A stretch of DNA of 64,000 nucleotides, from positions 146,532 through 210,531 of the IMG/VR virus record IMGVR_UViG_3300031414_000007, one strand, 5' to 3'. The notes under the pieces are model-generated. The model did not search any database and was not told where the DNA came from. It was given only the letters and a program-made list of their open reading frames with translations. The translations under genes and the position numbers were made by a program. Positions 23,176 through 57,664 of this stretch are shown here, in pieces. This DNA is from a virus (Duplodnaviria; Caudoviricetes). Numbering within the stretch: position 1 is the stretch's first letter; every line of letters begins with the position of its first letter.

Positions 23176-25062
23176 TTACTTCATTTTAGCGAGGCGTTCA
23201 CGACGTGCTTTAGCTTCCTCACGCATGTAGACGGCTTCTTCTTTTGCTTCTGCAAGAGCTATTTCAAGCGCACGATCACAGATGGCTTGAATTACATGCT
23301 CCGGAGATTCACTTGGCTCAACCAGAAAATTACCGCTACGCGATAGCACCTCAGTATCAGGATAGAGTTCCTCTCTGGCCTGAGTTATACACAGCTCCTC
23401 GTCGATGCGGTAGATTAACGTGGCCAGCTCGGTCTTCTTGAACTTGTTCTCCTTACGCTCAAACAGAGGACGCAGTTTAGGGTGGAAGTCTCTGCGAGCA
23501 TCAATAGCCACATACTTCCACCCATCAAATACCTTCTGCGCACATTCATAGTAGCGAGCATCTACACTGTCCTTGTATCGCTCAAGGCTTGCGCGTGTTG
23601 CAGCAGGGCAGATAGGAGACATGTTGGCGAGTGAGCCGATGGCGGGAGCAAGCACGTACTCGTCTCTATAGCTATCACCTACCACGTATTCTTCGTCTAC
23701 ATATTTGGTCTGCACTTCGCCTGTATTAACGCGGCACGCATTGTACCAGAATGCACTTTCAGGATTTTTGGTATACTTAACGAACGACCAAATCTGCGAG
23801 AGTGCGGCAGGATATGACCAGTTCTGGATGTTCTCTTCCCTGTTTCCGTAGAAGTCCACATCACCAAGATTCGCGTCCAAGAAGTTCTGACGTTTTGTGT
23901 GAGGCAGCTTGTCAATGAAGATTTCCATAGCTCTAGGCCTATGCGTCAGGTACTGCCACAACTTGATCACAGTCGGGTCTTCAACACCAAGTGTATCAAA
24001 AACTATATCGAGATAGTCGCCGAACTCTTGGTAGTGTTTATTCACAAGCAGCTCGGTAGCGGTGCGCACATAAAACATAGGCTGCCCCCACTTCTCACGC
24101 GCGAGCGCAAGAGCAATGCTCGGATATCGGTCCATATAACTCCGTGCAATGTCTTCTCCGTCTTTAGTGCGCTTTGCAGCAATCAAACGTTTAACAAACG
24201 TGTTGACGTCACCATGAATAAGAGGACTTTCGAGATCATAGTCAAACTCCTCCCAGCGGCGATCTGGATAGAGCTTGCTGCTTAGTTCGTATATGCCTTT
24301 ACGTTCAGTTGTTGCTAGGAACGGATTGATGTGCTCGTCAAGCCACTCCTGCAGCACGTGGACGAAAGGCATCTTAGCATCAGGATAGGCAAACTCGACC
24401 AGATAAAGAGCGTTCACCTTTTCAGAGCCTACGAATCGATCGGACGCTTTAATCTTAGCCTTCTTCTCAAAGTAAGGCTTAGCTAGGCAGCGACCAATAG
24501 GCTTGTTGATGTTCTTGTCTGATGGGTCAATCAGATAGGCAACCAGAGTACCACCAGCGATATCCTGTTTGACATACTTCTTGTTCGAACCTGTCTTCAC
24601 GTTCATGCAGCTAACCCAACCACGATCGGTGGACATACCTGCAATGTCGTATGGGTGCATTGAGATACAAATGAGTTGACGATTACGCGTAGCATTCACA
24701 ATAGACTTACGGTTCGGGTCAGAGTCGAACATCTTTTTGAGTTCTGGATTGTTCGACAACACACGACCAATCTTAACGATTCGACCATGCTTGTCCTTTC
24801 CTGCACCTGTCAGGTAATCGACGAGAACAATATCTTTCTCTGCCAGCGCGTCTACGATCTGAATCGGCGGCTTGACGTTTTGCGCAACGTTTTTGATCAC
24901 GTTGTCGCTCTTTGCGTCTATATAGATACGCATGGCCTTGTGGCCTTTCTTACCGCTAATCTTTTCGAAAAGATTGAGCAAAGTCGTATTAGGCTTCCAA
25001 CCTTTTCTGTACTTGCGGTACAACGAAGGAGGGAGAGCGGACAGACTGACTTGAATTTCCAT
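23176..25062 (-). CDS. Tagged probable virion/internal protein of unknown function
   Basis: 628 aa, starts MEIQVSLSA, CTAATTT upstream; motif SMHPYDIAGMSTDRGWVSCM. Confidence 0.6.
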   Translation of the reverse strand: MEIQVSLSALPPSLYRKYRKGWKPNTTLLNLFEKISGKKGHKAMRIYIDAKSDNVIKNVAQNVKPPIQIVDALAEKDIVLVDYLTGAGKDKHGRIVKIGRVLSNNPELKKMFDSDPNRKSIVNATRNRQLICISMHPYDIAGMSTDRGWVSCMNVKTGSNKKYVKQDIAGGTLVAYLIDPSDKNINKPIGRCLAKPYFEKKAKIKASDRFVGSEKVNALYLVEFAYPDAKMPFVHVLQEWLDEHINPFLATTERKGIYELSSKLYPDRRWEEFDYDLESPLIHGDVNTFVKRLIAAKRTKDGEDIARSYMDRYPSIALALAREKWGQPMFYVRTATELLVNKHYQEFGDYLDIVFDTLGVEDPTVIKLWQYLTHRPRAMEIFIDKLPHTKRQNFLDANLGDVDFYGNREENIQNWSYPAALSQIWSFVKYTKNPESAFWYNACRVNTGEVQTKYVDEEYVVGDSYRDEYVLAPAIGSLANMSPICPAATRASLERYKDSVDARYYECAQKVFDGWKYVAIDARRDFHPKLRPLFERKENKFKKTELATLIYRIDEELCITQAREELYPDTEVLSRSGNFLVEPSESPEHVIQAICDRALEIALAEAKEEAVYMREEAKARRERLAKMK

Positions 25063-25089
25063 TGGGGATCTCTGTGTTCGGGTGATGAT

Positions 25090-25098
25090 AAAAATTAG
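25090..25098 (-). promoter_or_regulatory. CTAATTTTT late-type box
   Basis: Intergenic, before 25062. Confidence 0.6.
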
Positions 25099-25120
25099 CG
25101 TAGAAACGACAAACGCCCCT

Positions 25121-25630
25121 TCAGGAGCGTCTATTGAATTTTAGCCAGTCTTTCCACCAATACGTAACGGGCTTGTTTTGCTTGAGCGCGTAGTCAATAC
25201 AGTTCTGTGTTCCTGATGGTGCACCACAACATAATGAAATCAGACGATCTGTTTCATCAACCATGTAGTGATTGCGTTTGTTGAGTGCGAAGCCTGCTTG
25301 ACCGTCCATGTGAAGCCAGTCTTCTTTTGATGTGACTATTCTTACTTCGTGGCTTTTATTAAGAAGACCGTCAAGTTCAATCACGCTACTGATTGGCCAG
25401 CGAGCATTGAACCCAGGATAAGGTAGACAGGAAACAACTTTATGTCCTTGGGATATTGCGGCAGTCGCTACAGCCATATCAAAGCCAAGAGCGCACCCGA
25501 CGTAGATGATTGCATCGTCGTCCAGTGCGAGTAATCTGCGATGTGCGAAAGTATACAGGCGATCTTTTGCCTTAGGGCTGAATCCACCCAACGATTGTGG
25601 GCGATGACCAGTGAAGGATATCTTTTCCAT
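25121..25630 (-). CDS. SLOG-superfamily (YspA/DUF1273-like) nucleotide-binding protein
   Basis: ISFTGHRP, GCALGFD, RNHYMVD, SGTQNCIDYA match the YspA-like SLOG pattern. Confidence 0.8.
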   Translation of the reverse strand: MEKISFTGHRPQSLGGFSPKAKDRLYTFAHRRLLALDDDAIIYVGCALGFDMAVATAAISQGHKVVSCLPYPGFNARWPISSVIELDGLLNKSHEVRIVTSKEDWLHMDGQAGFALNKRNHYMVDETDRLISLCCGAPSGTQNCIDYALKQNKPVTYWWKDWLKFNRRS

Positions 25631-25636
25631 ACAGAG

Positions 25637-25645
25637 TATTTACAG
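25637..25645 (-). promoter_or_regulatory. CTGTAAATA box upstream of the SLOG gene
   Basis: Exact motif only 6 nt from the ATG. Confidence 0.6.
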
Positions 25646-25669
25646 AAGCACGTCCGTGTGCCGATACAA

Positions 25670-26035
25670 TTAGACCGTTACTTCGAGGTCATGATCGCCT
25701 GAGTTCCATACGAGTTCGCGGATGTTACGAGGCATGATGATACAACCCGAAGAGGCAGTACCCGGAGCCTTGATGCTATCGCCGTGCATCTGAAATGCAG
25801 AGCGACCGAACATCTCGTTCTCTTTTGCAGGAGTCAGGTCCATAGCATACGGTCCTGTCTTCTGGCTGGTACGAGGTTTGTTCAGAGTGTAGCGTCCCAC
25901 AGGCAAAGGGCCCATGCCAACTACGTTCTGAGACTCGTGTTTGTTTTTGTGTTCGCCTTTACCTGCATAGCCACGAGCGACCAGCTGGTGTTGAGCGTTG
26001 AACAGTTCACCTGTCGTTTGTTTATAAATCCACAT
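25670..26035 (-). CDS. DUF2778/Tlde1-like L,D-transpeptidase-fold protein
   Basis: GPLPVGRY, GRSAFQMHGD, ASSGCI (catalytic His...Cys). Start set at ATG 26035 after AAGGAG. Confidence 0.75.
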   Translation of the reverse strand: MWIYKQTTGELFNAQHQLVARGYAGKGEHKNKHESQNVVGMGPLPVGRYTLNKPRTSQKTGPYAMDLTPAKENEMFGRSAFQMHGDSIKAPGTASSGCIIMPRNIRELVWNSGDHDLEVTV

Positions 26036-26075
26036 ACGATGCTCCTTACATTTTGATGTGGTTTTCAACTAAAGT

Positions 26076-26108
26076 AAAAATGGGCCAACACCTTTCGATG
26101 TAAGCCCA
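26076..26108 (-). terminator. Intrinsic terminator after the ART-like gene
   Basis: TGGGC...GAAA...GCCCA followed by TTTTT. Confidence 0.6.
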
Positions 26109-26117
26109 AGATCACGA

Positions 26118-26627
26118 TCATTCCTTAATCATCTTGACGCGTGTGTGATCAAAGATGCCGAAGGTAGGCACATCGTTGTGCTCACCCTCATTACCTTTAA
26201 TCGAGTCATACCCAGCAAGTTTGAGTATCTTGCTGATCTCGGTATACTCGTCCCACCACATATAAACCCTTTTGTGTTGCGATGAAGGGATTAGGTTGTT
26301 GAGCGCGTCTAATCGTTTGACAAGAGTTATCGCCTCATCTTTGCCTACCAAATGCAACTGGAAGGCTTCCATGATAAGTTGTTTAACCCTTCTATAAATC
26401 TCAGCGAACTTTACTTCCGTCCACAGAGAACGGAACTTCAAGGTAGCATAGTGACCAGGGTCCGCATGAAACTTGTAGAGACGCCCACCTTCTGCGTACA
26501 GTTCGGCATACGCACGATCTGGAGTTACCCAAGTCATGTGTTGCTTCTTCGCACGTTCCTCATTCCAGTCTTCTGCAAGACCTCGATAGTAGGTGGTGGG
26601 CGCACTCAGACTGACAAAGATCTGCAT
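26118..26627 (-). CDS. Tagged ADP-ribosyltransferase-like protein
   Basis: Starts MQIFVSLSA; YYRG...WVTPDRAYAELYA...GYDSIK..E...FGIFD resembles ART-fold strands. Confidence 0.5.
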   Translation of the reverse strand: MQIFVSLSAPTTYYRGLAEDWNEERAKKQHMTWVTPDRAYAELYAEGGRLYKFHADPGHYATLKFRSLWTEVKFAEIYRRVKQLIMEAFQLHLVGKDEAITLVKRLDALNNLIPSSQHKRVYMWWDEYTEISKILKLAGYDSIKGNEGEHNDVPTFGIFDHTRVKMIKE

Positions 26628-26630
26628 CTG

Positions 26631-27593
26631 TTACCAGTTGGTGTCTTTGATATTCGACTCGCCCAGAGCACGTTTGAAAGAGTCAGGCGTCAGGCCGTAT
26701 TTAGCCATATCAGATTTCTTAACCACCAGCTTCTGACCACGCTTGTTGGTAAAGACGCCTTTGCCTTTCTCAACAGTACCAGTCCACCCAGCAGCAGAAG
26801 TGATAGGCTTACCGCCATTCAGTTCTTTCAGCATACGCTTGGACATACGCGTATCTTTATCCCACTGCTTGGACTGACCTGCCAGATGCTTGTTTGCCGC
26901 ATCATCAATCTGGCCAGGAGTTCTGTGGCGAGTACCGCCGGTCAGAGCTTTTTCGCGTTGAGCTTTGATGGCTTTCTTCTTCTCAGGAGTGAACGCACCA
27001 GTAATAGCACCTTTCATTTTCTTGATAGGAGCTTTAGCCGCAGCTTTGGTTGTGGTCTTGCTGCCCAGCGCGTCGAAAGCGGCTTCTTTAACAAACTTAG
27101 GCTTGAATGCACCACGTTTGCCTGTGATACCAAACTCGGTCAGCTTAGTGCTACGAATCTGTTTAAGCGCAGCAGCAGAGCCAACACCTGTTTTAATGTC
27201 AGCAGCAGACAGAGGCAGATTCAGTCCACCAAGACCATGTTTCTTGGCGTGAGAGTTCGCTTCACGAATCAGAGCTTTCGCCTGTTTAATGTCTGCGGTA
27301 GCTTTGGTCTTCTCAGTCTTGCGAGTTTCCATCAGCGCAGTACGCTTAGGACCTTTAGCAGTCTGACGCGCTTTGGTGGAAGCAGTATTCGATTTGATGC
27401 TGGCGGTGATGCCAGAGACTGCGGCAGTTTTAGCTTTCTTCAACAGACCGAGAACAGCTTGCAGTTCTGCTTTCTTCGCGGAGTTAACAACCAGAGTCTG
27501 AACGCCACCGACTTTAGCGATCTTGTACGAAGGTTTCTTTGCGGCAGACTCGGACGCTACAGTCTGCTCAACGTTGATTTTGATAAGTGCCAT
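26631..27593 (-). CDS. Basic Lys/Ala-rich probable internal virion protein
   Basis: Start set at ATG 27593 (MALIKINVEQTVASESAA), which removes the overlap with the upstream gene. Confidence 0.6.
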   Translation of the reverse strand: MALIKINVEQTVASESAAKKPSYKIAKVGGVQTLVVNSAKKAELQAVLGLLKKAKTAAVSGITASIKSNTASTKARQTAKGPKRTALMETRKTEKTKATADIKQAKALIREANSHAKKHGLGGLNLPLSAADIKTGVGSAAALKQIRSTKLTEFGITGKRGAFKPKFVKEAAFDALGSKTTTKAAAKAPIKKMKGAITGAFTPEKKKAIKAQREKALTGGTRHRTPGQIDDAANKHLAGQSKQWDKDTRMSKRMLKELNGGKPITSAAGWTGTVEKGKGVFTNKRGQKLVVKKSDMAKYGLTPDSFKRALGESNIKDTNW

Positions 27594-27603
27594 TTTGGGT
27601 TCC

Positions 27604-28206
27604 TCAAACCAGGGCTCTGCCTGGGAGTTCGAAGTTCTTACCGGCTGAGTAATCACCCAGCGCCTGATAGAGAGAGTTGCGCAACATCTGATTGATGATG
27701 TCCGAGTTATGTGCCGAAGCGTCTTTGAAAGCCACCTCGATCGATTCGTTTCTCGGATTCAATACAGCATAACGCAGCGGGCAGATCTTTTGCGCTTCAC
27801 ACCACGCGTCGATTTTAATCTGCAAATCAGGCGTGATTGGAATACGAAAGTCTGACAGTTGAAACACAACGCTCTGGATAGGAGGAGGTGATGACTCTGA
27901 CTTAACAGTGTCAGTGCCTAGCTTCTCCATAGCCATCGCCGCGTTATACACGGAGGAGAACTTGGTCTTCAACGTGTTTGTTTCGACGAGCTTATAGCTA
28001 TTCGCCGCAAGCCCTTGACGACGCAACTTGGCAATCTTAACAACATAATCACCTGAGTCGTCAGAAGCAAATGCAACGTAAGCGTAGAACGCAAAGCCAG
28101 ACGCTTCACGCAGCAACTTATGATCTAAGGCGCGGTCGCCTATGATAACATTCAGTTGTTGCAGACCCATCTGGACTTCGCGTGACAGTGAAACGTAGAT
28201 TTGCAT
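27604..28206 (-). CDS. Tagged hypothetical protein
   Basis: 200 aa, starts MQIYVSLSR. Confidence 0.65.
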   Translation of the reverse strand: MQIYVSLSREVQMGLQQLNVIIGDRALDHKLLREASGFAFYAYVAFASDDSGDYVVKIAKLRRQGLAANSYKLVETNTLKTKFSSVYNAAMAMEKLGTDTVKSESSPPPIQSVVFQLSDFRIPITPDLQIKIDAWCEAQKICPLRYAVLNPRNESIEVAFKDASAHNSDIINQMLRNSLYQALGDYSAGKNFELPGRALV

Positions 28207-28544
28207 TAGCGCAGACGAGCGAGAGCCTGTTTAGCTTTTGCCAGAGTCTGTTCGTAGTTCGCTTCGTCGTCGAACTCAGGCTCCATACGAATCTCGATGC
28301 CAGAGATATTGAACCCAACATCTTCGTCTTCGTCTTTGGTCACCATGCCGAAACGTGCAACGCCGTTTTTGTAGCTGATGAAACGGAAGTCGAGAATATC
28401 TTCCGGGCCACCCAGGTCAGACGGCATGCCGTCGTCCAGCAGATCGAAGAACTCTTTCTTCGTCAGTTTGCTGAACACTGCATTGATAGCAGAGGCCGAT
28501 TCTGACTTAACAGCTTCTTCGAGATTCAGTTTGATAAGGGACAT
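28206..28544 (-). CDS. Small acidic probable virion protein
   Basis: 112 aa, starts MSLIKLNLEEAVKSESASA. Confidence 0.6.
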   Translation of the reverse strand: MSLIKLNLEEAVKSESASAINAVFSKLTKKEFFDLLDDGMPSDLGGPEDILDFRFISYKNGVARFGMVTKDEDEDVGFNISGIEIRMEPEFDDEANYEQTLAKAKQALARLR

Positions 28545-28546
28545 GG

Positions 28547-29119: not shown

Positions 29120-29144
29120 AATAAAGCCCTCTGTTAGACAGACT

Positions 29145-29152
29145 AAAATTAG
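29145..29152 (-). promoter_or_regulatory. CTAATTTT late-type box
   Basis: Intergenic, before the endolysin. Confidence 0.6.
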
Positions 29153-29154
29153 CG

Positions 29155-29997: not shown

Positions 29998-30044
29998 AGT
30001 TTCTACCTCGGGTAGGTTGTTAACAAGGTGCTACGCTCTAAGGT

Positions 30045-30052
30045 AAAATTAG
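30045..30052 (-). promoter_or_regulatory. CTAATTTT late-type box
   Basis: Intergenic, after a terminator and before 29997. Confidence 0.6.
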
Positions 30053-30065
30053 TGCCAAGATCGAC

Positions 30066-34267: not shown

Positions 34268-34304
34268 AAAAAGAAGGGCCACCAGCAATGGCAGCCCCGT
34301 CTTT
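34268..34304 (-). terminator. Intrinsic terminator
   Basis: GC-rich stem followed by TTCTTTTT. Confidence 0.6.
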
Positions 34305-34752
34305 AATAGCGTCTTGGTTTCTTCGGCTTCTTAATCTTGACCGACTTCGGACGTTTGATACGCTGCAAGGCCTTACGTGCCTCAGCAATCTGACCAGACA
34401 GAGTAGCACGTTGTTTCTTCACGGCATCCGTATCTTGGTCTGTGCCTTTCAGTTTATCAAGGCGGTTCCATTCTTTGACCAAACGATCAACGACAGCAGC
34501 ACGACTGACACGTTGCTGGTTGGTACGCACAATATCCTGCTGCGTCTTTACCGAGCGTTGCGCTTCTAATACTTTGGCACGTCCTGACTCAATGCCTTTC
34601 GTATCACCGTCAGACTGTTTTTCGTTGAGCGTCTTACGTGCCACGGTTGCTCTGCGTTGTGCTCCTTTCAGATCATCACGCGAGTTCTCTAAACTGACTT
34701 TCGTTTCTTCAAGTGGGCTGGTACGCGCACTCAAGCTAATGAGGATTTTCAT
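34303..34752 (-). CDS. Tagged basic coiled-coil protein
   Basis: 149 aa, starts MKILISLSA; GGAG RBS. Confidence 0.65.
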   Translation of the reverse strand: MKILISLSARTSPLEETKVSLENSRDDLKGAQRRATVARKTLNEKQSDGDTKGIESGRAKVLEAQRSVKTQQDIVRTNQQRVSRAAVVDRLVKEWNRLDKLKGTDQDTDAVKKQRATLSGQIAEARKALQRIKRPKSVKIKKPKKPRRY

Positions 34753-34883: not shown

Positions 34884-35420
34884 TCATGCTGATTGAAGAT
34901 CGACAACTTCCTCGTCTTCTATATCAGCGGCAGACCACGAACGAAGCACGGACGCATTGCCGCGATTGCCCGTCAGCATAGATTTAACTGCTGGTTTGGC
35001 ATCGCGCTCTGCATAGTAGTTGCTAAGAGCGTTCTCATTAGCGAACCACAAAATGGAGTGACCACCTTTAGGGCAGATCAGGAATTGTGCTGGACGCTGC
35101 GGAACGTTCAACGTCATATAAAAATCACCAGCACCAGTAGGACCCATCATAGGCATGGGTTTCATGATCTGCATAAAATCGTTGGCATCTTTAAGGCGAG
35201 TATCGCCTAACAGCCAGAGAGCACCTTCTTCACCTTCACGCACGGCAGACAATGTACCTTTGCGAGTAGTGATTGAACCGAATACATCCTGATCAAATCG
35301 AGCCAGACCAAAGATAAGCGATGCGAGTTTCTTTAAATCAGGAGTGGTGCATGGGCTATCAATTTTCGCCATGCCCTCAGACCCAATTGTAATCTTCGAC
35401 AGTGATACAAAGATTTCCAT
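34884..35420 (-). CDS. Tagged hypothetical protein
   Basis: 178 aa, starts MEIFVSLSK. Confidence 0.65.
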   Translation of the reverse strand: MEIFVSLSKITIGSEGMAKIDSPCTTPDLKKLASLIFGLARFDQDVFGSITTRKGTLSAVREGEEGALWLLGDTRLKDANDFMQIMKPMPMMGPTGAGDFYMTLNVPQRPAQFLICPKGGHSILWFANENALSNYYAERDAKPAVKSMLTGNRGNASVLRSWSAADIEDEEVVDLQSA

Positions 35421-38554: not shown

Positions 38555-39130
38555 CTATGCCCTCAAATCAACCAAGATAGATGCAGACAAATCTCGGAGC
38601 ATGTCACGACCGAGAGGTGTGTACATTGTTTGGGAAACTACAATTCGTTCAAGGAAGAGGCGAGAACTGATAACGTCCTGCCCTGTGCGCTGTTGAACGA
38701 AATCAATGATGGCTGATGGTGGTTGAATGAGGAACGTTAAGATCTCAGCGTCGTGCAGGACGCTACCCATCTCTGTAACAGGACGCATCTCTGTTTCCTG
38801 ATCGAGAATGTATGAGATCACACGGTCTTCATTACCAATATTGCGATGTGTTTTAAAGAACTTGCGAGCAGCACTCACGGTGCGCATAAAATCGTAGTCC
38901 GAAGAAGTCGGCATACGGAGAAAGAGTGAAGCTAAGAGCAGGTTTATTTCTAACTGCGGGCCTTGCTCGATGTTTAACATGGCATGAGAGGTCAGTACCA
39001 CATCTAACGAGAAGTCACGAGTGTAGAGCGGGTGAGAGTTCGCTGTCTGATCAAAGTAGTCGAGAGCCATGTGCAGCCCTCGACGTTTTAACAGGTGCTC
39101 TGCCTTGATACGGTTCAGGCGGTGCATCAC
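38555..39130 (-). CDS. Hypothetical protein, possible degenerate HD-domain fold
   Basis: Helical; LLLASLF and LHDAE at HD-like spacing, but the HD dyad is missing. Confidence 0.4.
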   Translation of the reverse strand: MMHRLNRIKAEHLLKRRGLHMALDYFDQTANSHPLYTRDFSLDVVLTSHAMLNIEQGPQLEINLLLASLFLRMPTSSDYDFMRTVSAARKFFKTHRNIGNEDRVISYILDQETEMRPVTEMGSVLHDAEILTFLIQPPSAIIDFVQQRTGQDVISSRLFLERIVVSQTMYTPLGRDMLRDLSASILVDLRA

Positions 39131-40101
39131 TCGGCGCCACGAATCTCTTTGAGAGAGTTCTTGATCGCTTTACGCAGCGTCTTACCAGTGTCGATGCCGT
39201 CGATGTGACGAGCGAACACATTCGCAAACAACGTGGTAGGATTCTTCATGATTGCTTTGTCGAGATCAGGACGACCCTCAGCAATCTGAATCTCACCAGG
39301 CCAGAGTTCAGCAACTGCCTGACTGTCGTTAGCGGCAATCAGCTCCAGCTCACGGACCGAGATACTGTTCTGGCGAGCAATCGTACGGAAGATCATGTCA
39401 ACGAAAGGAAGCAGGTCTTCGGACACAACGTTCTTCACGTCTTTCGCATCACCAGCTCGCTGGAAATCTTCCAGCAGACCTTCGAGGTGAGTCTGCGTGA
39501 TCTTCTGGACGTTACGCAGTTTCTTGAACAGCATCATCCAGCGCACTTTGCGTTTGGAACTCAGCAGGTGAGTCCACACTGATTCGCCTAAGGCAATCAT
39601 CAGTTTGTTGTAGACGTCAACCGATACGCAATCACGATCAACAAAGACCGTGATCTCGTCATGCCACTCGTCCTTCTTGAACTTGGTTCGGAAGGAGTGA
39701 GTCTTCGACCCTGACTGCTGGACGAAGTTGATTTGCTTGCAGCGACGAATAGCTTCCTGAAGGCCATACTTAGCAATCACCTTCGGAAGTTTTTTCACTG
39801 CCAGACGACAGGCTTTAGCGACTTCTGCTTCGCGCCCGTAGAGAGCGAGGCGAGGCAGACCACCATAGACAGGCATTGATGCGTAAGGTCGGACAGTGAC
39901 GCCACACACGGACATACCCGGCTCAGGGTCTGGACCCAAGACCGCAAGCACGTCACCTGCCTTAGGACTGAACTTGATCGTTTCTGTTTCCGGCGCACCA
40001 AGCGTGTTAGCCAGAATGCCAACAGTGTTGCCGGTTGCCAGAACAAGATGATTCTTATTACCCTGCCTTACGACAAGGTAATCATTTTCACTATGTTTCA
40101 T
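39127..40101 (-). CDS. Hypothetical protein
   Basis: 324 aa with phage-typical codon usage. Confidence 0.7.
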   Translation of the reverse strand: MKHSENDYLVVRQGNKNHLVLATGNTVGILANTLGAPETETIKFSPKAGDVLAVLGPDPEPGMSVCGVTVRPYASMPVYGGLPRLALYGREAEVAKACRLAVKKLPKVIAKYGLQEAIRRCKQINFVQQSGSKTHSFRTKFKKDEWHDEITVFVDRDCVSVDVYNKLMIALGESVWTHLLSSKRKVRWMMLFKKLRNVQKITQTHLEGLLEDFQRAGDAKDVKNVVSEDLLPFVDMIFRTIARQNSISVRELELIAANDSQAVAELWPGEIQIAEGRPDLDKAIMKNPTTLFANVFARHIDGIDTGKTLRKAIKNSLKEIRGAE

Positions 40102-43406: not shown

Positions 43407-44066
43407 TCACTTTTTCTGTGAGACGCGTTTTCCGAGCTTAATCCCGATTTGAGTCAGAATTTTCTTAACTGTTTCACCGTCATGCTCTTCCATAGCAGTG
43501 GCTAGGCGTTCGCCCTGTTCGCGCGATAGCTCAGGCATAACCATTTTAAGCATCTGCGAACGCAGTTTTGCGCTCTTTGATTTGCCTTTCGAGACAGACA
43601 CGCCTTCATTCGCCTTAAGCGCACTGCTAATCGCTTTCTGCACACGACGATCACCAAAAATGTCGCCGAATATGTCACCGAACAGGTCCTTGAACGACAA
43701 TCCGCCGCCCATAATGTCGTCTTTCGTGAAACGAACAGGCACACCCAGCGCATTCACTTTATTGCAATGCACCGATTCAACCTGATTCGTTGTACGTCCA
43801 CCGGCAAGGAAGTTCTCGTCAGGGCGTGACGCTTTGCCCTCAGCGCCCGGCTTACTATTGCCGTTGCGTAAATCCGGGTCGCCTTCAACCTGTTTGTTTT
43901 GATCAAACATATCGTCGGCTGTTTCGCTTTGATTTGGGTCGAACGGGATCTTGCCTGTCAGCTTGTTTGCGTCAGGCCAGCTATCAGGAATATCAGAAGC
44001 AGGCTGTGCCTTGTTCGTCATATCACCGTTCGCTTCACCACTCAAACTGATCTTAATACGAGCCAT
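43407..44066 (-). CDS. Tagged probable virion protein
   Basis: 219 aa, starts MARIKISLSG; internal VSVSK. Confidence 0.6.
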   Translation of the reverse strand: MARIKISLSGEANGDMTNKAQPASDIPDSWPDANKLTGKIPFDPNQSETADDMFDQNKQVEGDPDLRNGNSKPGAEGKASRPDENFLAGGRTTNQVESVHCNKVNALGVPVRFTKDDIMGGGLSFKDLFGDIFGDIFGDRRVQKAISSALKANEGVSVSKGKSKSAKLRSQMLKMVMPELSREQGERLATAMEEHDGETVKKILTQIGIKLGKRVSQKK

Positions 44067-52148: not shown

Positions 52149-52555
52149 GCATACAAAAAGATTATGAACGATCACTGCGCCGACTTAAGGAGTCTGTCTA
52201 TCGCACTGAACAGTTAGGTTATGTTGTGCCTCGCTGTGTTGATATTGTTCTCTCAAAGTTGAAGCCGCCTGAGACTGTATCGTCTAGGAAGTATCTGGTC
52301 ATGTTGCTGCTGTTTAGTCAGACCTGTGACAACCTACGATCTGCTTTGACAATGAGAGAGCAACTGGTAGTCAAGATGGCCATACTCAGTCGCAAACACC
52401 CAACGCCAGAGATTCAACGTCGCATCAGACGTCTTGAAGAACTGGTCAATAATCAGGATAGGAATATCGAAAGTCAGAGGCTGCTGCTTGATTACAGAGC
52501 AAACGTCCTGCTGGATATCCTTGACGGGAAAGAACCCAACTCACGATACACTTGA
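52145..52555 (+). CDS. Hypothetical helical protein
   Basis: 136 aa, coupled to the upstream stop. Confidence 0.6.
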   Translation: MSIQKDYERSLRRLKESVYRTEQLGYVVPRCVDIVLSKLKPPETVSSRKYLVMLLLFSQTCDNLRSALTMREQLVVKMAILSRKHPTPEIQRRIRRLEELVNNQDRNIESQRLLLDYRANVLLDILDGKEPNSRYT

Positions 52556-52562
52556 GGTACTC

Positions 52563-53039
52563 ATGGAAATTTATGTAAGCCTGAGTCAGGACTCTACAGA
52601 CAAGAACCGCAACAAGGTATCGAGTCCGGAGTCCAACACCGGCCGCGTTGACGTGTCTGAATATGCGTCACTGGAAAAGAAACTGCGTCTACGTGAAGAA
52701 GCTGTCGATAAAGAGAAACTCGCTCAGAAGGCTGGTGGCGGGGATTCTGTAAAGGGTAAGAAAGGCGCCAAGAAGAAAGGCGATGACAAACCCGAAGAAG
52801 ACGATACTGACATTGATACCGACACTGATACAGATGGAGGCGATGATGATACAGATGACTCTTCCGATGACAGTGGAGACGACTCCGATGGAGACGCTAA
52901 AGCTAAGAAAGGTGGAAAGAAATCTAACAAGTCTGGAGATGCGGACGACGAAGACGCAGAAGACCCTGACGCAGACGAACCCGAAAGTGATGACGGGGAT
53001 GCAGATGCTGAAAGCATTGATGACGAGGACCTCGAATAG
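52563..53039 (+). CDS. Tagged, highly acidic low-complexity protein
   Basis: Start moved to ATG 52563 (MEIYVSLSQ) after GAGG; Asp-rich C-half. Confidence 0.65.
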   Translation: MEIYVSLSQDSTDKNRNKVSSPESNTGRVDVSEYASLEKKLRLREEAVDKEKLAQKAGGGDSVKGKKGAKKKGDDKPEEDDTDIDTDTDTDGGDDDTDDSSDDSGDDSDGDAKAKKGGKKSNKSGDADDEDAEDPDADEPESDDGDADAESIDDEDLE

Positions 53040-53535
53040 CGATCCCGTCGATGTGCCGAAGACGCATGATGCGATGATCGAAGTTCTGATCGCTATTCGC
53101 TACATGTGCACCAAGCGGATGATCTATCCTGTAGTTGCTGCTACCATAGAACAGCGTAACGACTTTCTGGTGATGAACAAGCTGACTTTCCAGATGAAGC
53201 CGAGCATGTTCTACAGCGCTATTCAGGATAGCAACTGCAAAGTGAATGTGTGTTGGCTTATGCGAGCCTTCACACGCACTGCACTGCATTTTGGTCTGAT
53301 GCCAATCATCGCGGACAGAAGCGGTGACTTCCAGCCTCTGGTGAGTCGCTTCTTCACTCAGGACGATCCTGATTTTGCGTATCGACGTTTCTATGACGTG
53401 CGTAAGCTGCCGTCAGTAACAGACATTCGTAAGCCCCGCCTGTATACGCTTAACGGAGTTAACTATGGCGTACAAGTCACAAGCCAAGAAACCGAAGAAG
53501 TCAAAAGCTGCGAAAGAAGCAGATACTCGGAATAA
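53020..53535 (+). CDS. Hypothetical protein (start uncertain: 53020 or 53074)
   Basis: Globular C-terminal part of track ORF 52783..53535; the upstream part is a shadow of the acidic gene. Confidence 0.5.
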   Translation: MTRTSNSDPVDVPKTHDAMIEVLIAIRYMCTKRMIYPVVAATIEQRNDFLVMNKLTFQMKPSMFYSAIQDSNCKVNVCWLMRAFTRTALHFGLMPIIADRSGDFQPLVSRFFTQDDPDFAYRRFYDVRKLPSVTDIRKPRLYTLNGVNYGVQVTSQETEEVKSCERSRYSE

Positions 53536-54121
53536 GGCACACAAGCAAGCGAAGCGCGGTAAGCTCGCTCAGGCAGTGAAGACTCTCAGTGCTGCATCTG
53601 CCAAATCGCGCCGCATGACTAAAGGTGAGAAACGTGCAATTCAGTTGCAGCCGTTCAAACCTCAGATTGTGCCTCAGCCTCCGAAAACTCCTCTGATGGA
53701 AAAAGGTCTGTCGCTTACTGCGCTTATGCGCTCGACACCTCGCCTGATGAAAGAGAACGCGATGGAGTGTTACGTTAACACTGTGAAACGCGGTAAGACT
53801 AACAAAGGTCTGCCGATGATCATGGCTAACGTTCGACACAAAGATCCACTGCGCCCTAATAAAACAGTGCGCATTCACAAGCCGATGATTATCGGTCTGG
53901 ATGACCCGTACAAGCCTATCTCAAAACAAAAGCGTGTGCTGGTCAGTTGTCCTTGTGAGAACTTTGTTTTCATGTGGGAGTATGCGAACGCCGAACACGG
54001 CTGTGCGCGAATCATTTACGGTAATGGCGAACCGCCGGACTTCACTAACCCCGGTCATGCGCCCGGTCTGTGCAAACATCTGATGGCTTTGGCCGATCAA
54101 GTCAAACGCAATGGAGATTAG
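53465..54121 (+). CDS. SWIM-type zinc-finger protein with basic N-terminus
   Basis: VSCPCENF...CKHL. Confidence 0.65.
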   Translation: MAYKSQAKKPKKSKAAKEADTRNKAHKQAKRGKLAQAVKTLSAASAKSRRMTKGEKRAIQLQPFKPQIVPQPPKTPLMEKGLSLTALMRSTPRLMKENAMECYVNTVKRGKTNKGLPMIMANVRHKDPLRPNKTVRIHKPMIIGLDDPYKPISKQKRVLVSCPCENFVFMWEYANAEHGCARIIYGNGEPPDFTNPGHAPGLCKHLMALADQVKRNGD

Positions 54122-54123
54122 TT

Positions 54124-54657
54124 TTGAATATCTTCACATCTGATACGCACTACGGAGCCGAACGCACTCTTCAATTTAGTCGCCGCCCATTTGGCAGTGT
54201 TCTTGAGATGGATAAAACCATGCTCGACCGCTGCAATGAGATAGCTACTGAAAAAGATACACTGTACCACGTAGGTGACTTTGGTTCCTATGAGATGGTG
54301 CAACATATCTGTGCGCCTGTCATTTTGATTTGCGGTAACTACGAGATCAATGACATGCACAAACAGTTTGCTTCGGACTTCGATGCTTTCCGTGCGCACC
54401 TGATGCGTTTGGGTTTTGTTGACGTTGTTCGAGACAGTCTGGAAGTGGATGGAATGTATCTCAACCACTACCCAACTAAGCGCCGCGTTGACCAGTTCAG
54501 CCTGTTCGGTCATATTCACGGATTACAGATGGTCAAACGCAATGCGTTAAACGTTGGCGTTGACTGTCATCATTACGCGCCTGTTGATGCAGAGCGCCTA
54601 CAGTTCTTCCGTAATGCAATCGAAAATCATTACGACGAAGACGTGTTTGGTTCATAA
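54124..54657 (+). CDS. Calcineurin-like metallophosphoesterase
   Basis: FTSDTH, VGDF, GNYE, H, GHIH; probable TTG start at 54124 after GGAG. Confidence 0.8.
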   Translation: MNIFTSDTHYGAERTLQFSRRPFGSVLEMDKTMLDRCNEIATEKDTLYHVGDFGSYEMVQHICAPVILICGNYEINDMHKQFASDFDAFRAHLMRLGFVDVVRDSLEVDGMYLNHYPTKRRVDQFSLFGHIHGLQMVKRNALNVGVDCHHYAPVDAERLQFFRNAIENHYDEDVFGS

Positions 54658-54666
54658 GGAGATTGC

Positions 54667-54942
54667 ATGTTCTTTAAAAATCCTGCCATGGGCGTTGTGC
54701 CCAATCAGCCGATCATTCACTCTATTACGGAGATGCACCGTCGTGTTGCAGAACTGAACGGTGAGCTGATTGCTGCTGGCTGTACTGTGGTCGAGAACTG
54801 CGGTGAGATGTTGATTGAAGTACCTGCTGGAGCATCCGCCACTGTTGACGGAATTATGCAGCGTCACATCGACATGTTCAAAGGCCCGATTATCAGCCGC
54901 CCTGCGCGTTTGCAAATCGGAGGTGAAGATGCAGAAGCGTAA
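54667..54942 (+). CDS. Hypothetical protein
   Basis: 91 aa, AAGGAG RBS. Confidence 0.6.
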   Translation: MFFKNPAMGVVPNQPIIHSITEMHRRVAELNGELIAAGCTVVENCGEMLIEVPAGASATVDGIMQRHIDMFKGPIISRPARLQIGGEDAEA

Positions 54943-55363
54943 GTTCGATCCGAACGAACCTTACTCAGTATCTCTGTCGTTTGGTCCGCATATCGTTCAC
55001 GGCCATGCGCAAGACAGCGCGTTTGGTCAGGTGATGCAGAACATGTTGCTGCGCGAGATCAACAAATCATGCGAAGCGATGTTCAAGACTCTGGCTGATG
55101 TTCCTGTCGCTGCTGCTCCTACGTTTGATTGTGCCGAAGTAGAGGCAAGCAACATTCTTGCGGCTGTTCAACGTTGGCACGAAATGATTGCCAATGAGCC
55201 ACTCGTGAAAGAGTTCGAACCGTGCTTTGTGCCAGACTGGATGCGTCCTGGTCTTCGTGCTAAAGGCATGACTGATGAACAGATTGATAAGATCGTTATC
55301 ACTGGCATCGAGCCTTCGTTTGAAGATCGCCCAGGCATCGTATTCAAAACGGTGAGTGCCTAA
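54929..55363 (+). CDS. Hypothetical protein
   Basis: Start moved to ATG 54929 after GGAGG. Confidence 0.6.
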   Translation: MQKRKFDPNEPYSVSLSFGPHIVHGHAQDSAFGQVMQNMLLREINKSCEAMFKTLADVPVAAAPTFDCAEVEASNILAAVQRWHEMIANEPLVKEFEPCFVPDWMRPGLRAKGMTDEQIDKIVITGIEPSFEDRPGIVFKTVSA

Positions 55364-55578
55364 TGGCCTGCGCCGGTTGTGGCCGTCGTAGCTCTCGCAT
55401 TAGCTATCACGGCGCCTCTGCTCCTCAAGTTGAAATCGAAGAGGACGATACGTTAAGCGCTGCGCGTTTAACTCCAATGGGTTGGGTACGCACCTGCGTT
55501 AAATGCGGGAAAGTATCTGAGCCTTCACCCTTTGCAGAAAACATCAATAAGCCATGTGACTGCACTTTAGACGAGTGA
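55363..55578 (+). CDS. Small Cys-rich (zinc-ribbon-like) protein
   Basis: CAGC, CVKC, CDC in 71 aa; TAATG coupling. Confidence 0.55.
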   Translation: MACAGCGRRSSRISYHGASAPQVEIEEDDTLSAARLTPMGWVRTCVKCGKVSEPSPFAENINKPCDCTLDE

Positions 55579-56309
55579 TCATGATGAACAATCTCGTTGG
55601 AACAGCGTGTGCCTTAGACTCCTGCCGCTTCTATGCAGAGAATATGGTGCACATACAATTCGGCAGTTCTCTTTGTCCTGTGTCGCCTCAACCGCCATAC
55701 AATCAACCTGTCAATAATCGCAATCTGCATTCGTGGATTGAAAGTATTGAACTGGCGTTTGACAATGCAATCAGTCGTACCGATCTGCAATTCCAGTACG
55801 CAGGCATTCTCTATCGTTTCCGTTCTATCTACGGGAACTATGTGGCCCAATACCGCGATGACATTTCGGCTGGTCGTCAGTATCGTGCGAAAGTAGGAAC
55901 TCCGTTGGATGCGGTGCCGGAGCGGATTGAGGGCGAACATGCGAAAGAGTTTGCTTCTCGCTTCTTCAACTACACGGCAGGCCAAGTGACCGCGTTCTTA
56001 TACATGGTCTGTCTCGATCAGTATGCTCGTGAACAAACAGACTGCTATCTACCTGACCCACCACGAGCATTCGATTTGCCTCAGAACATCTTCAACGAAA
56101 GCCCTACCGCTTTCACGAAGACACACGACGTTCTGGTTAATCATCTGATGGAAGCGATGTTGCAGACGCATAGCGATACGCTGGACATTCATGTGTCGTT
56201 GCGTGATTACGGTCTGTCTGTTATCTTCCCGCTGGTGGCTGAGTGTCGCAATGTGATTTACGCCACCTGGCCAATCCCTAATGCCAAAGGACAAAAAGCA
56301 AATGTCTGA
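55575..56309 (+). CDS. Hypothetical protein
   Basis: 244 aa in the operon. Confidence 0.6.
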   Translation: MIMMNNLVGTACALDSCRFYAENMVHIQFGSSLCPVSPQPPYNQPVNNRNLHSWIESIELAFDNAISRTDLQFQYAGILYRFRSIYGNYVAQYRDDISAGRQYRAKVGTPLDAVPERIEGEHAKEFASRFFNYTAGQVTAFLYMVCLDQYAREQTDCYLPDPPRAFDLPQNIFNESPTAFTKTHDVLVNHLMEAMLQTHSDTLDIHVSLRDYGLSVIFPLVAECRNVIYATWPIPNAKGQKANV

Positions 56310-56835
56310 TGTTATTCTGTTTGACAATCAGAAAGACTGGGAAGACTTCGGTAGCGCGGTCTACGAAGAATTTCGTCTGAACGTGATGACAGGCAGTAGC
56401 AGCGCCAGTCAGATTCCTACAGTCGCACCGTTCGAAGACGTGAAACACCAACTCAGTTATTCGAACATTCTGCCTGAGGGTGAGCAATCGCCTATCGTTG
56501 TGCTGGACATCCTGATCATGGAAGTTGAACTGGCCGAAGGTGAATCGCGCAACTATAATGCAGACAGTCTGGACGAAGCTGTGCGCAAAGTTGTATCACT
56601 GTATCAGGCTCGCGCTCGTGATCTAGACTGCCACCTGACTGGTAACTTCATTACTGCCGATCATAAAGTTAATGGTGCGCTGTTGCGTATCTACCGTAAT
56701 CAGGACTTCGTGTGCAAAGGCCATCCTGAACTTCTGCACGGACGTCCTCTGGGCATGTTCCATTGTGACAAGTGCGGTGAGATGCAAATGGCCGGAGCAT
56801 TCCACTTGCCTAAAGAGGAAACTCAAAATGGTTAA
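56281..56835 (+). CDS. Hypothetical protein with C-terminal CxxC
   Basis: 184 aa; the start may be ATG 56302 (MSDVILF). Confidence 0.6.
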   Translation: MPKDKKQMSDVILFDNQKDWEDFGSAVYEEFRLNVMTGSSSASQIPTVAPFEDVKHQLSYSNILPEGEQSPIVVLDILIMEVELAEGESRNYNADSLDEAVRKVVSLYQARARDLDCHLTGNFITADHKVNGALLRIYRNQDFVCKGHPELLHGRPLGMFHCDKCGEMQMAGAFHLPKEETQNG

Positions 56836-57295
56836 AGGCGGACTGTGGCGCGTCTTCCCTGATTACGACTCAGAGGAGATGCTGCTCAAACTCGGTGCTG
56901 CTATCGGTATCGACCGTGACAGTGATGACGTGCCTGATGAATTGCACGTTACTCTGGCTTACGATGAATCGAACCCTGACGTTGAAGCAGAGCAAAACGA
57001 TGCGGGCCAGTTCTTTGGCACCGTTGCCTCTGCTGAATTGTTCGGCGAAGGTCAAGATAAGATTCTGGTGCTCGTACTCGAATCGCCTGACCTGCAACAG
57101 GAACACGCTCGTATTCATGCGTGTGGTGCTGCCAAGTTTGCGCACACTCCATACCGCCCGCATGTGACGTTACTCAAACATGCAAAAGACAGCCAAGCTG
57201 AATATCTCAACCAGATCATTCAGCATCCGGGCCGTCCTCCAATCACTCTGCGCTTCATCGAAGAAGATCGCAAGGTGCTGGAGAAGCGTAGCTAA
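56828..57295 (+). CDS. acb1: 2H phosphoesterase, Acb1/T4 gp57B-like anti-CBASS nuclease
   Basis: Two HxT motifs (LHVTLAY, PHVTL) and LVLVLESPDL...H....GA...PY.PH, matching T4 gp57B LVLVLDSEYL..RH...GA...Y.PHITL as recalled; start at ATG 56828. Confidence 0.75.
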   Translation: MVKGGLWRVFPDYDSEEMLLKLGAAIGIDRDSDDVPDELHVTLAYDESNPDVEAEQNDAGQFFGTVASAELFGEGQDKILVLVLESPDLQQEHARIHACGAAKFAHTPYRPHVTLLKHAKDSQAEYLNQIIQHPGRPPITLRFIEEDRKVLEKRS

Positions 57296-57299
57296 AACC

Positions 57300-57326
57300 T
57301 AGCGGTGGCCTTGGGCTGCCGCTTTT
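57300..57326 (+). terminator. Intrinsic terminator after acb1
   Basis: AGCGGTGGCC-TT-GGGCTGCCGCT followed by TTT. Confidence 0.65.
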
Positions 57327-57346
57327 GTCATTCTGGAGAAATTTCT

Positions 57347-57664
57347 ATGAAAATCTATGTAAGCCTTTCCCATGAGATTCGCGTTGGTCGTCAAGACTCT
57401 GATCAAGTTGATGTGCTTGAAACAACTGATGGCCAGAGACGTGCTGTTGAGCAACAAGAGAAAGAGCGCATTGTTGAAGAATATGGCATCGACACCCCTA
57501 AGGAGGAGATTGACGAAAAAGAGAAGGAACGCATTGAGCGCGAAGAGGAAAAGCGCGACGAAAACAAGACCAAAGCACCGGAAGATTTGGGTCAGCGTAA
57601 GCCGGAATCTGAACTCACTGGTTCTGAGATTCAAGACCAGCATGATAACCTGACAAAGATCTAG
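57347..57664 (+). CDS. Tagged small acidic protein
   Basis: Start moved to ATG 57347 (MKIYVSLSH) after GGAG; Glu-rich. Confidence 0.65.
   Translation: MKIYVSLSHEIRVGRQDSDQVDVLETTDGQRRAVEQQEKERIVEEYGIDTPKEEIDEKEKERIEREEEKRDENKTKAPEDLGQRKPESELTGSEIQDQHDNLTKI

What the first reader, a model, noticed from the sequence alone, without database searches (positions are those of the whole stretch)
23176..57664. Shared N-terminal tag M-x-I-x-[VI]-S-L-S on eight unrelated proteins: candidate capsid-targeting/maturation signal
Seen: proteins starting at 25062 (MEIQVSLSA), 26627 (MQIFVSLSA), 28206 (MQIYVSLSR), 34752 (MKILISLSA), 35420 (MEIFVSLSK), 44066 (MARIKISLSG), 52563 (MEIYVSLSQ) and 57347 (MKIYVSLSH) share an 8-9 residue N-terminus and have no evident similarity beyond it. 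They are 105-628 aa long and range from basic to very acidic. They are scattered over 34 kb on both strands, and codon choice varies, so the motif is held at the protein level. Two of the starts are hidden inside longer ORFs in the track. Established: T4 internal proteins and Alt carry an N-terminal capsid targeting sequence of about 10 aa that is removed by the prohead protease gp21 (cleaving after L/I-x-E); phiKZ/SPN3US proteases cut after S/A/G-x-E; P1 DarB uses an N-terminal packaging signal. Inference: this is a modular address label for loading cargo into the head for injection, possibly cleaved at an S-x-S site rather than after Glu. It would predict the phage's injected arsenal from sequence and could be used to package foreign proteins.
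Basis: partly seen in the sequence, partly recalled or inferred. Interest (0 to 1): 0.9.

Follow-up and report, generated by a model that had tools for sequence, protein, structure and literature searches.

The report
Shared capsid-address-like tag, jumbo phage
Nine otherwise unrelated proteins of this Erwinia/Dickeya-type jumbo phage, including an ADP-ribosyltransferase and a Nudix hydrolase, start with the same eight residues. The tag most likely loads them into the phage head for injection, as phage T4's capsid-targeting sequence does, but no virion data exist yet.

Summary
All eight window proteins start M-x-I-x-[VI]-S-L-S, and a ninth (a Nudix hydrolase) lies elsewhere in the genome. The core hexamer occurs 10 times at ORF starts against 0.08 expected. 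Ser and Leu codons vary, so selection acts on the peptide.

The phage belongs to the "Lupandier" hairy jumbo myoviruses (Alexandravirus/AD1-like), not to the phiKZ/SPN3US group. The tag is kept on orthologues in five genomes of four to five genera, on about 15 unrelated families.

AlphaFold2 leaves tag residues 1-7/8 unstructured, outside the fold, in the two families modelled. One carrier is a stand-alone ART-PolyVal ADP-ribosyltransferase. Its homologues in a T4-like contig carry, at the same position, a T4-type capsid targeting sequence (MKTFKQFITE; T4 has MKTYQEFIAE), inside an array of seven such genes.

Several tagged genes share a promoter-like motif (GCTAATTT) with the sheath, head and endolysin genes. 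Conserved S-x-S-(A/G/S) sites also occur in the major capsid protein, the head protease and a scaffold-like protein, which hints at a Ser-x-Ser cleavage rule.

Verdict: most likely a new, sequence-unrelated variant of the T4 capsid-targeting/propeptide principle. Packaging and cleavage are inferred, not shown. This scan has noted CTS-like tags in other phages before.

The parts
23176..25062 (-). P0001, 628 aa, tag MEIQVSLS; large cargo of unknown function. Orthologues and paralogues occur in JA29 (two copies) and Yoloswag.
   Evidence: A GCTAATTT promoter-like motif lies 37 nt upstream.
25092..25099 (-). Promoter-like motif GCTAATTT upstream of P0001. The same motif lies 31-50 nt upstream of the sheath, head-cluster and endolysin genes.
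26118..26627 (-). P0002, 169 aa, tag MQIFVSLS followed by a stand-alone ART-PolyVal-type ADP-ribosyltransferase. R15, the W33-V-T35 region and E147 are conserved.
   Evidence: AF2 gives pLDDT 92 with residues 1-7 below 50. Foldseek gives weak matches to AcrIF11, a cyanophage pre-ejectosome chain and other ARTs.
27604..28206 (-). P0003, 200 aa, tag MQIYVSLS, function unknown. It lies in the endolysin operon.
34303..34752 (-). P0004, 149 aa, tag MKILISLS; very basic (pI 10.8), Lys/Arg-rich, no Pfam family. Tagged orthologues occur in all five genomes.
34884..35420 (-). P0005, 178 aa, tag MEIFVSLS followed by a beta-rich domain of unknown function.
   Evidence: In alignment A2, M1, I3, L7 and S8 are invariant down to 33% identity. 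AF2 puts residues 1-8 below pLDDT 50. Orthologues in AD1, Y3 and JA29 sit under GCTAATTT.
43407..44066 (-). P0006, 219 aa, tag variant MARIKISLS (one residue longer), largely low-complexity. The Y3 orthologue starts MRVMISLNS.
52563..53039 (+). P0007, 158 aa, tag MEIYVSLS; extremely acidic (pI 4.1) low-complexity protein. Tagged orthologues occur in all five genomes.
57347..57664 (+). P0008, 105 aa, tag MKIYVSLS; acidic Glu/Lys-rich protein. The Y3 orthologue starts MEMLISLS.
8238..14087 (-). 1949-aa SNF2-type helicase with a tag-like N-terminus (MMNQMISTSA; Y3 MINISTSA). Candidate large cargo comparable to P1 DarB.
28206..28544 (-). 112-aa protein with a longer leader variant, MSLIKLNLEEAVKSES-ASA.
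26631..27593 (-). About 320-aa paralogue with the leader MALIKINVEQTVASES-AA.
16651..17457 (-). 268-aa protein of the head gene cluster with four S-x-S-(A/C/G) sites conserved in five genomes. Candidate scaffold or core protein cut at several places.
29146..29153 (-). GCTAATTT motif upstream of the endolysin gene. Downstream, genes run without gaps on the minus strand from 29119 to 26118 and include P0003 and P0002.

Best explanation
M-x-[IVL]-x-[VI]-S-[LIV]-S is a modular N-terminal capsid-targeting propeptide of this jumbo-phage lineage (Alexandravirus, Sasquatchvirus, Salmondvirus, Yoloswagvirus).

Inferred mechanism. Tagged proteins are made late. The short, extended, alternately hydrophobic tag docks them onto the assembling prohead core. 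The head maturation protease (G000 117758-118537) then removes the tag, probably after the second Ser of an S-x-S site followed by a small residue. The freed cargo stays in the head and enters the host with the DNA. The cargo includes an ART-PolyVal ADP-ribosyltransferase, a Nudix hydrolase, basic and acidic low-complexity proteins and a 628-aa protein, and perhaps the 1949-aa SNF2 helicase.

What is shown: the tag exists, is N-terminus-specific, is conserved as a peptide, lies outside the fold in the two families modelled, and sits where T4-like phages put their CTS on homologous cargo.

What is inferred: head packaging, the cleavage site, late timing and injection.
For: 1. Non-random, strictly N-terminal motif.
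2. Selection acts on the peptide. Within families, tag identity is 76% against 55-60% for the rest. There are 117 synonymous differences in codons 2-8. M1, I3, L7 and S8 are invariant at 33% overall identity.
3. About 15 unrelated families carry the tag in five genomes, and carriers differ between genera. That is the hallmark of a portable module.
4. The tag is outside the fold. AF2 puts residues 1-7 (P0002) and 1-8 (P0005) below pLDDT 50 next to confident domains. The Pfam NUDIX domain starts at residue 22 of the ninth carrier.
5. Tag swap on homologous cargo. P0002 is an ART-PolyVal relative. Its homologue P0069 lies in a T4-like contig (Gp23, Portal_T4 and gp19 families). That contig has seven genes starting MKTFKQFI-x-E, close to the T4 CTS MKTYQEFIAE (concept in PMC9026906 and PMC3012670). 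Other metagenomic relatives carry SLS-type tags on two different ART genes in a row.
6. ART-PolyVal domains also sit inside 2000-5000-aa polyvalent proteins. A weak Foldseek match falls on a cyanophage pre-ejectosome chain.
7. The promoter-like motif GCTAATTT lies 31-50 nt upstream of the sheath, head-cluster and endolysin genes. It also lies upstream of tagged P0001, the P0005 family and Yoloswag 199138. P0002 and P0003 lie in the endolysin operon.
8. Conserved S-x-S sites are over-represented (0.63 against 0.18-0.44 for 13 other residues) and 22 of 43 are followed by A, G or S. They occur in the major capsid protein (LALSES-TGE, also in PaBG as LALSSS), at the head protease N-terminus, and four times in a head-cluster protein. 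PaBG virion proteins are known to be processed (PMC7412058).
Against: There are no virion proteomics or N-terminal data for any carrier. The Y3 records label a few genes as virion structural proteins, but none of the tagged ones.

Most carriers lie among replication, recombination and lysis genes rather than in the head module. That GCTAATTT is a late promoter is inferred from its neighbours only, and most tagged genes lack it directly.

The S-x-S enrichment is modest and S-x-S is a common tripeptide. The second capsid-protein site is not conserved in PaBG.

PaBG, Lu11, NCTB and RSL1 share the head genes but show no enrichment of the tag.

The tag has no sequence similarity to the T4 CTS, and no T4 gp21-type or HK97-type protease family was detected.
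Confidence: 0.6

Rival explanations
1. The tag directs proteins to another destination or partner than the head interior. Examples are the tail or its 'hairs', the baseplate, the membrane-bound assembly site, or a shared chaperone or docking protein, through beta-strand addition.
For: The tag has the alternating hydrophobic pattern of a beta-strand. These phages have an unusual hairy tail morphology (PMC6143709). One tag-like carrier (p224, KMPT-N domain) lies between tail-tube genes.
Against: The cargo consists of enzymes and low-complexity proteins typical of injected or internal proteins. The homologous ART cargo in a T4-like phage bears a head-targeting CTS. Proteins of 105 aa with low-complexity sequence cannot build long fibres.
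Confidence: 0.13
2. The tag is a processing or turnover signal unrelated to virions: an N-terminal degron or activation propeptide. It would be read by a phage peptidase (for example the 324-aa 'peptidase' at window 39127-40101) or a host protease, and would time the activity of host-takeover enzymes.
For: The phage encodes an extra peptidase of unknown type (phrog_17197). An ART may need to be kept inactive until needed. The conserved S-x-S-small motif looks like a protease site.
Against: This does not explain why structural head proteins carry the same S-x-S sites. It also does not explain why T4-like homologues use a capsid-targeting sequence at the same place. The low-complexity acidic and basic carriers have no obvious activity to regulate.
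Confidence: 0.1
3. The shared N-terminus serves expression rather than sorting. It would be an optimal translation-initiation region or nascent-peptide context, spread by recombination of gene-start cassettes.
For: Some carriers also share upstream DNA: a hairpin followed by CATTTCTGGAG in front of 34752 and 57347.
Against: There are 117 synonymous differences within tag codons and Ser uses both codon families, so the constraint is on amino acids. Upstream regions are otherwise dissimilar. Most highly expressed structural genes lack the tag.
Confidence: 0.05
4. The tag is a historical remnant: the carriers descend from one ancestral gene whose body diverged beyond recognition, and the N-terminus is a structural element of each fold.
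For: The carriers cluster within 34 kb, and some neighbours are true paralogues (28206-28544 and 26631-27593).
Against: The carriers belong to demonstrably different superfamilies (ART, Nudix, SNF2, KMPT-N). The tag is outside the fold in AF2 models. ART homologues elsewhere lack it or carry a different tag.
Confidence: 0.03

Closest known systems
Phage T4 capsid targeting sequence (CTS, MKTYQEFIAE) of internal proteins IPI/IPII/IPIII, and the propeptide of Alt (Mullaney & Black 1996; reviewed in PMC9026906 and PMC3012670)
   Same: A leader of about 8-10 residues at the very N-terminus of otherwise unrelated proteins. The leader is conserved while the cargo is hypervariable between related phages. 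The cargo includes an ADP-ribosyltransferase (Alt in T4, ART-PolyVal here). The leader ends at a probable head-protease site. The carrier genes lie outside the core head module, near the lysozyme gene.
   Different: There is no sequence similarity. This tag looks beta-strand-like with Ser-x-Ser, not a leader ending in Leu/Ile-x-Glu. The phage lineage is different (HK97-type capsid protein, no detectable gp21-type protease family). There are more and larger cargo types. Packaging is not demonstrated.
Propeptides of phiKZ/SPN3US head and ejection proteins, cut after S/A/G-x-E (PMC5694885, PMC7411985)
   Same: A jumbo phage with many candidate internal proteins and a small residue at the position three before the cut.
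   Different: This phage is not a chimallivirus (PMC7412058). Glu follows the tag in only 3 of 8 carriers and is not conserved in orthologues (SLSRE here, SLSKA in AD1). phiKZ-type propeptides are long and not a shared 8-mer.
P1 DarB and the Dar system, packaged through N-terminal signals (PMC9024508)
   Same: A very large helicase-containing protein with an N-terminal packaging determinant. Here the 1949-aa SNF2 helicase has a tag-like start.
   Different: P1 loading is hierarchical through DarA/Hdf and does not use a short shared peptide. No homology was tested.
Polyvalent proteins of phages and conjugative elements carrying ART-PolyVal (Pfam PF18760)
   Same: The same catalytic domain. By the family's published description (from memory) these proteins are thought to travel with the DNA into the recipient cell.
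   Different: Here the domain stands alone (169 aa) and, under this reading, delivery is provided by a detachable 8-residue tag instead of fusion into a giant protein.

Membership tests
T4-type capsid targeting sequence (CTS) system | A short leader shared at the extreme N-terminus by otherwise unrelated proteins of one phage | tested here: met
   Nine carriers with no similarity beyond the tag.
T4-type capsid targeting sequence (CTS) system | Sequence resembles MKTYQEFIAE | tested here: not met
   The tag is M-x-I-x-[VI]-S-L-S. The T4 sequence was confirmed. True CTS-like tags were seen only in the T4-like contig L078.
T4-type capsid targeting sequence (CTS) system | Leader ends in the cleavage motif of the prohead protease (Leu/Ile-x-Glu for gp21) | tested here: not met
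   No conserved Glu. An alternative S-x-S-small motif shared with the capsid protein, the protease and a scaffold-like protein is suggestive only.
T4-type capsid targeting sequence (CTS) system | gp21-type (Peptidase_S77) prohead protease | tested here: not met
   PF03420 and PF04586 give no match in the 79%-complete genome. A different 'head maturation protease' (phrog_18299) is present.
T4-type capsid targeting sequence (CTS) system | Leader is dispensable for, and outside, the cargo fold | tested here: met
   AF2 puts residues 1-7 and 1-8 below pLDDT 50. The NUDIX domain starts at residue 22. ART homologues align from about residue 9.
T4-type capsid targeting sequence (CTS) system | Carriers are present in virions, processed, and injected | not testable with these tools
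   No proteomics for these phages is held. The Y3 paper is not in the library. PaBG mass spectrometry covers only 14 abundant proteins.
T4-type capsid targeting sequence (CTS) system | Late expression together with head proteins | tested here: inconclusive
   GCTAATTT is shared with the sheath, head and endolysin genes for some carriers, and two carriers lie in the endolysin operon. No transcript data.
ART-PolyVal ADP-ribosyltransferase (PF18760), for P0002 | Significant match to the family model | tested here: inconclusive
   No direct Pfam hit at E <= 0.1. phmmer hits at E 1e-18 to 1e-26 fall on proteins that pass the PF18760 cut-off.
ART-PolyVal ADP-ribosyltransferase (PF18760), for P0002 | Conserved Arg / Ser-Thr / Glu catalytic positions and an ART fold | tested here: met
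   R15 is nearly invariant, E147 is invariant, and the W33-V-T35 region is conserved in alignment A1. AF2 gives pLDDT 92. The best Foldseek rows are AcrIF11 (6kyf) and other ARTs, at weak E-values.
phiKZ/SPN3US-type propeptide | Cleavage after S/A/G-x-Glu by a phiKZ gp175-type protease in a chimallivirus | tested here: not met
   The phage belongs to the Lupandier group. S-x-E follows the tag in 3 of 8 carriers and is not conserved.

The most novel reading that the evidence does not exclude
A second, independently evolved capsid-address code. An 8-residue strand-like tag ending in Ser-x-Ser is read by a non-T4 head protease. It lets a lineage of cultured Erwinia/Dickeya jumbo phages load a changeable arsenal into the head: ADP-ribosyltransferases, a Nudix hydrolase, acidic and basic low-complexity proteins, and possibly a 1949-aa SNF2 helicase. 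The injected proteome could then be read from sequence, and foreign proteins could be packaged by adding eight codons.
Probability: 0.5. Interest if true: 0.7.

Novelty: new variant of a known kind. Interest (0 to 1): 0.6.

Why it matters
If true, capsid targeting by a short detachable leader is not a T4 peculiarity. It would be a convergent solution with a different peptide code and a different protease.

It would give a sequence-only list of the proteins these phages inject. That list includes enzymes likely to act against host defence or transcription.

Relatives of this phage that carry the same tag (AD1, Y3, Alexandra, the pEa_SNUABM series) are in culture. The idea can therefore be tested directly by virion mass spectrometry and tag-GFP fusions, and the tag could become a tool for packaging proteins into these phages.

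Tried and rejected
1. Chimallivirus / phage-nucleus import signal. Rejected: the phage belongs to the Lupandier group, not to phiKZ-like phages.
2. Pfam and PHROGs on the eight carriers gave no function. The Atlas search gave the ART lead for P0002 only.
3. tblastn of ART homologues against cultured phages found only the Erwinia/Dickeya clade. The T4-like evidence therefore rests on metagenomic contigs.
4. T4-type and HK97-type protease and capsid Pfam families gave no match.
5. Complex prediction of the head protease with residues 1-40 of P0004 returned no verdict (score 0.01). It counts neither for nor against.
6. Foldseek of the P0005 model returned nothing meaningful.
7. The tag in PaBG, Lu11, NCTB and RSL1 is not enriched.
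8. The Y3 paper with virion mass spectrometry is not held, and the GenBank notes carry no mass-spectrometry flags.
9. The ORF at 59008 (MRGILISLSLS) is an antisense artefact inside the gene at 58797-60059.
10. CTGTAAATA is abundant but sits upstream of primase, HNH and other genes, not of tagged genes.

Full report
**What is there.** The window is part of a 210.5-kb IMG/VR phage record, estimated 79% complete. Its nearest cultured relatives are Erwinia phage pEa_SNUABM_30 (93% nucleotide identity) and Dickeya phage AD1 (genus Alexandravirus). More distant ones are Y3, JA29 and Yoloswag. These are the "Lupandier group" of hairy jumbo myoviruses. They are unrelated to phiKZ/SPN3US (PMC7412058; PMC6143709).

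A ninth carrier, MMINVSLSAK, lies at G000 97114-97572. It is a Nudix hydrolase whose Pfam domain begins at residue 22.

**More than chance, and a peptide-level signal.**
- I.[VI]SLS occurs 13 times in the six-frame translation against 1.8 expected. Ten of these have a Met 2-4 residues upstream against 0.08 expected.
- In an unbiased tally of 1885 candidate ATG starts, this pattern is the top recurrent N-terminus and recovers exactly the nine proteins. The same tally in PaBG returns only noise.
- Ser uses both codon families.
- Among orthologues, codons 2-8 show 117 synonymous differences. The tag is 76% identical against 55-60% for the rest of the proteins.
- In the P0005 family, M1, I3, L7 and S8 stay invariant down to 33% overall identity.

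**A portable module.** Whole-genome scans of AD1, Y3, JA29 and Yoloswag find the tag on orthologues and on further, genus-specific proteins. That gives about 15 unrelated families in all. Among them is a second ART-PolyVal-type gene in JA29.

Looser versions occur on several other proteins:
- the 1949-aa SNF2 helicase (MMNQMISTSA);
- two KMPT-N domain proteins (MLILLSESA, MVLSVSA);
- two paralogues with a 16-residue leader ending in SES-A.

More distant metagenomic relatives use S-V-A, S-L-A or N-L-A in place of S-L-S. PaBG, Lu11, NCTB and RSL1 show no enrichment.

**The tag is an appendage.** The AlphaFold2 model of P0002 has mean pLDDT 92, with residues 1-7 below 50. The model of P0005 has mean pLDDT 79, with residues 1-8 below 50. 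Remote homologues of P0002 align from about residue 9.

**What the cargo says.** P0002 hits proteins at E 1e-18 to 1e-26 that pass Pfam's ART-PolyVal threshold. Many of those hits are domains inside 2000-5000-aa polyvalent proteins. R15 and E147 are conserved. The best, though weak, Foldseek rows are the ADP-ribosyltransferase anti-CRISPR AcrIF11, a cyanophage pre-ejectosome chain, and other ARTs.

The other carriers are a Nudix hydrolase, a very basic Lys/Arg-rich protein (pI 10.8), very acidic low-complexity proteins (pI 4.1-4.7) and proteins of unknown fold. From general knowledge of T4, this mixture resembles its Alt and internal proteins.

**Tag swap on homologous cargo: the strongest argument.** Stand-alone homologues of P0002 from other phages carry one of two things immediately before the conserved Y-R-G strand. 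Some have an SLS-type tag (MQIQLSLSG, MRIIISLSG, MKIFVSLAS and others). Others have an N-terminus of the form M-K-T-F-K-Q-F-I-x-E.

One of the latter, P0069, lies in a T4-like contig (Gp23, Portal_T4, gp15 and gp19 families). In that contig seven genes start MKTFKQFI-x-E, six of them in a row and two of them ART-PolyVal relatives. The T4 CTS is MKTYQEFIAE. Its role in loading unrelated internal proteins and foreign proteins, and its removal by gp21, are established (PMC9026906 and PMC3012670).

So two phage lineages place different short leaders at the same position on the same enzyme family, each within an array of otherwise unrelated tagged genes.

**Timing.** GCTAATTT occurs 14 times in the genome. 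Ten copies lie 31-50 nt upstream of an ORF start on the same strand. These include the tail sheath, two head-cluster genes, the endolysin and tagged P0001.

In AD1, Y3, JA29 and Yoloswag the motif again precedes sheath, head and endolysin genes. It also precedes the P0005 family and another tagged gene. P0003 and P0002 follow the endolysin without gaps. This fits late expression but does not prove it.

**A candidate cleavage rule.**
- The capsid protein has LALSES-TGE at residues 29-37. This is conserved across the group (PaBG has LALSSS).
- It also has VHSHS-G, ending at residue 67, about 18% of the chain. PaBG's capsid protein loses about 20% of its mass on maturation, but this second site is not conserved in PaBG.
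- The head protease begins IRSES-F.
- A 268-aa head-cluster protein has four conserved S-x-S-(A/C/G) sites.
- In an unbiased count over 148 proteins with orthologues in all four other genomes, conserved S-x-S is 1.4 to 3.5 times more frequent than the same pattern for 13 other residues, after normalisation. Of 43 sites, 22 are followed by A, G or S.

**Against.** No virion data exist for any carrier. Most carriers lie among replication and recombination genes. The distant relatives lack the tag. The complex prediction gave no verdict.

**Comparison and verdict.** Functionally this looks like the T4 CTS system. It is not a member by sequence, cleavage motif or protease family. I rate it a new variant of a known kind, with confidence 0.6 for head targeting and lower (about 0.4) for cleavage after S-x-S.

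This scan has reported CTS-like tags in other, mostly T4-like or uncultured phages. The present case differs in its peptide chemistry and in occurring in cultured, testable phages.

Noticed in passing
window 7827, 15764, 23135, 25645, 34250, 46208, 50747, 57669 and others (G000-wide): CTGTAAATA occurs 24 times in 210 kb (about 1.6 expected). It often lies 15-50 nt upstream of genes such as primase, HNH endonuclease and the 169-aa gene at 25121-25630. It is probably a second promoter class, distinct from GCTAATTT.
   Followed up: partly
window 21093-21100, 25092-25099, 29146-29153; G000 111056, 125801 and others: GCTAATTT lies 31-50 nt upstream of the sheath, head-cluster and endolysin genes and of some tagged genes. 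It is conserved in AD1, Y3, JA29 and Yoloswag and is a candidate late promoter element.
   Followed up: partly
L078:10001-13538 and 15615-15980 (T4-like metagenomic contig): Seven genes start MKTFKQFI-x-E, six of them consecutive. They form a large CTS-type internal-protein array between the sheath and tail-tube/portal genes and include two ART-PolyVal genes and a DUF5662 protein.
   Followed up: partly
G000 108071-108745, 116634-117800, 123871-125787 (outside the window): Three proteins carry the Pfam KMPT-N domain (PF20294) near the N-terminus. Two of them follow a tag-like leader, and they lie in or next to the head and tail modules.
   Followed up: partly
window 21175, 23152, 34775, 35496, 57304: A near-identical GC-rich hairpin (GGTGGC-loop-GCTGCC followed by a T-run) recurs 11 times in the genome. 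It probably acts as an intrinsic terminator and stands directly in front of two tagged genes.
   Followed up: no
window 59008 (-): A 62-aa ORF starting MRGILISLSLS matches the regex but is antisense inside the 420-aa gene at 58797-60059. It is conserved in AD1 only for that reason and is not a carrier.
   Followed up: yes
window 39127-40101 (-): A 324-aa protein of phrog_17197, annotated 'peptidase', has no Pfam or PDB sequence match. It is conserved in Y3, AD1 and a distant metagenomic relative (L093), and its type and role are unknown.
   Followed up: partly
window 43407-44066 (-), P0006: The protein contains the short repeat FGDIFGDIFGD within an otherwise low-complexity sequence.
   Followed up: no
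L090:1965-3511 (metagenomic contig): Three adjacent genes start MKIQLSMSK, MQIQLSLSG and MKVELGLSE. The first two are different ART-PolyVal-type genes. This extends the tag to an uncultured relative.
   Followed up: partly
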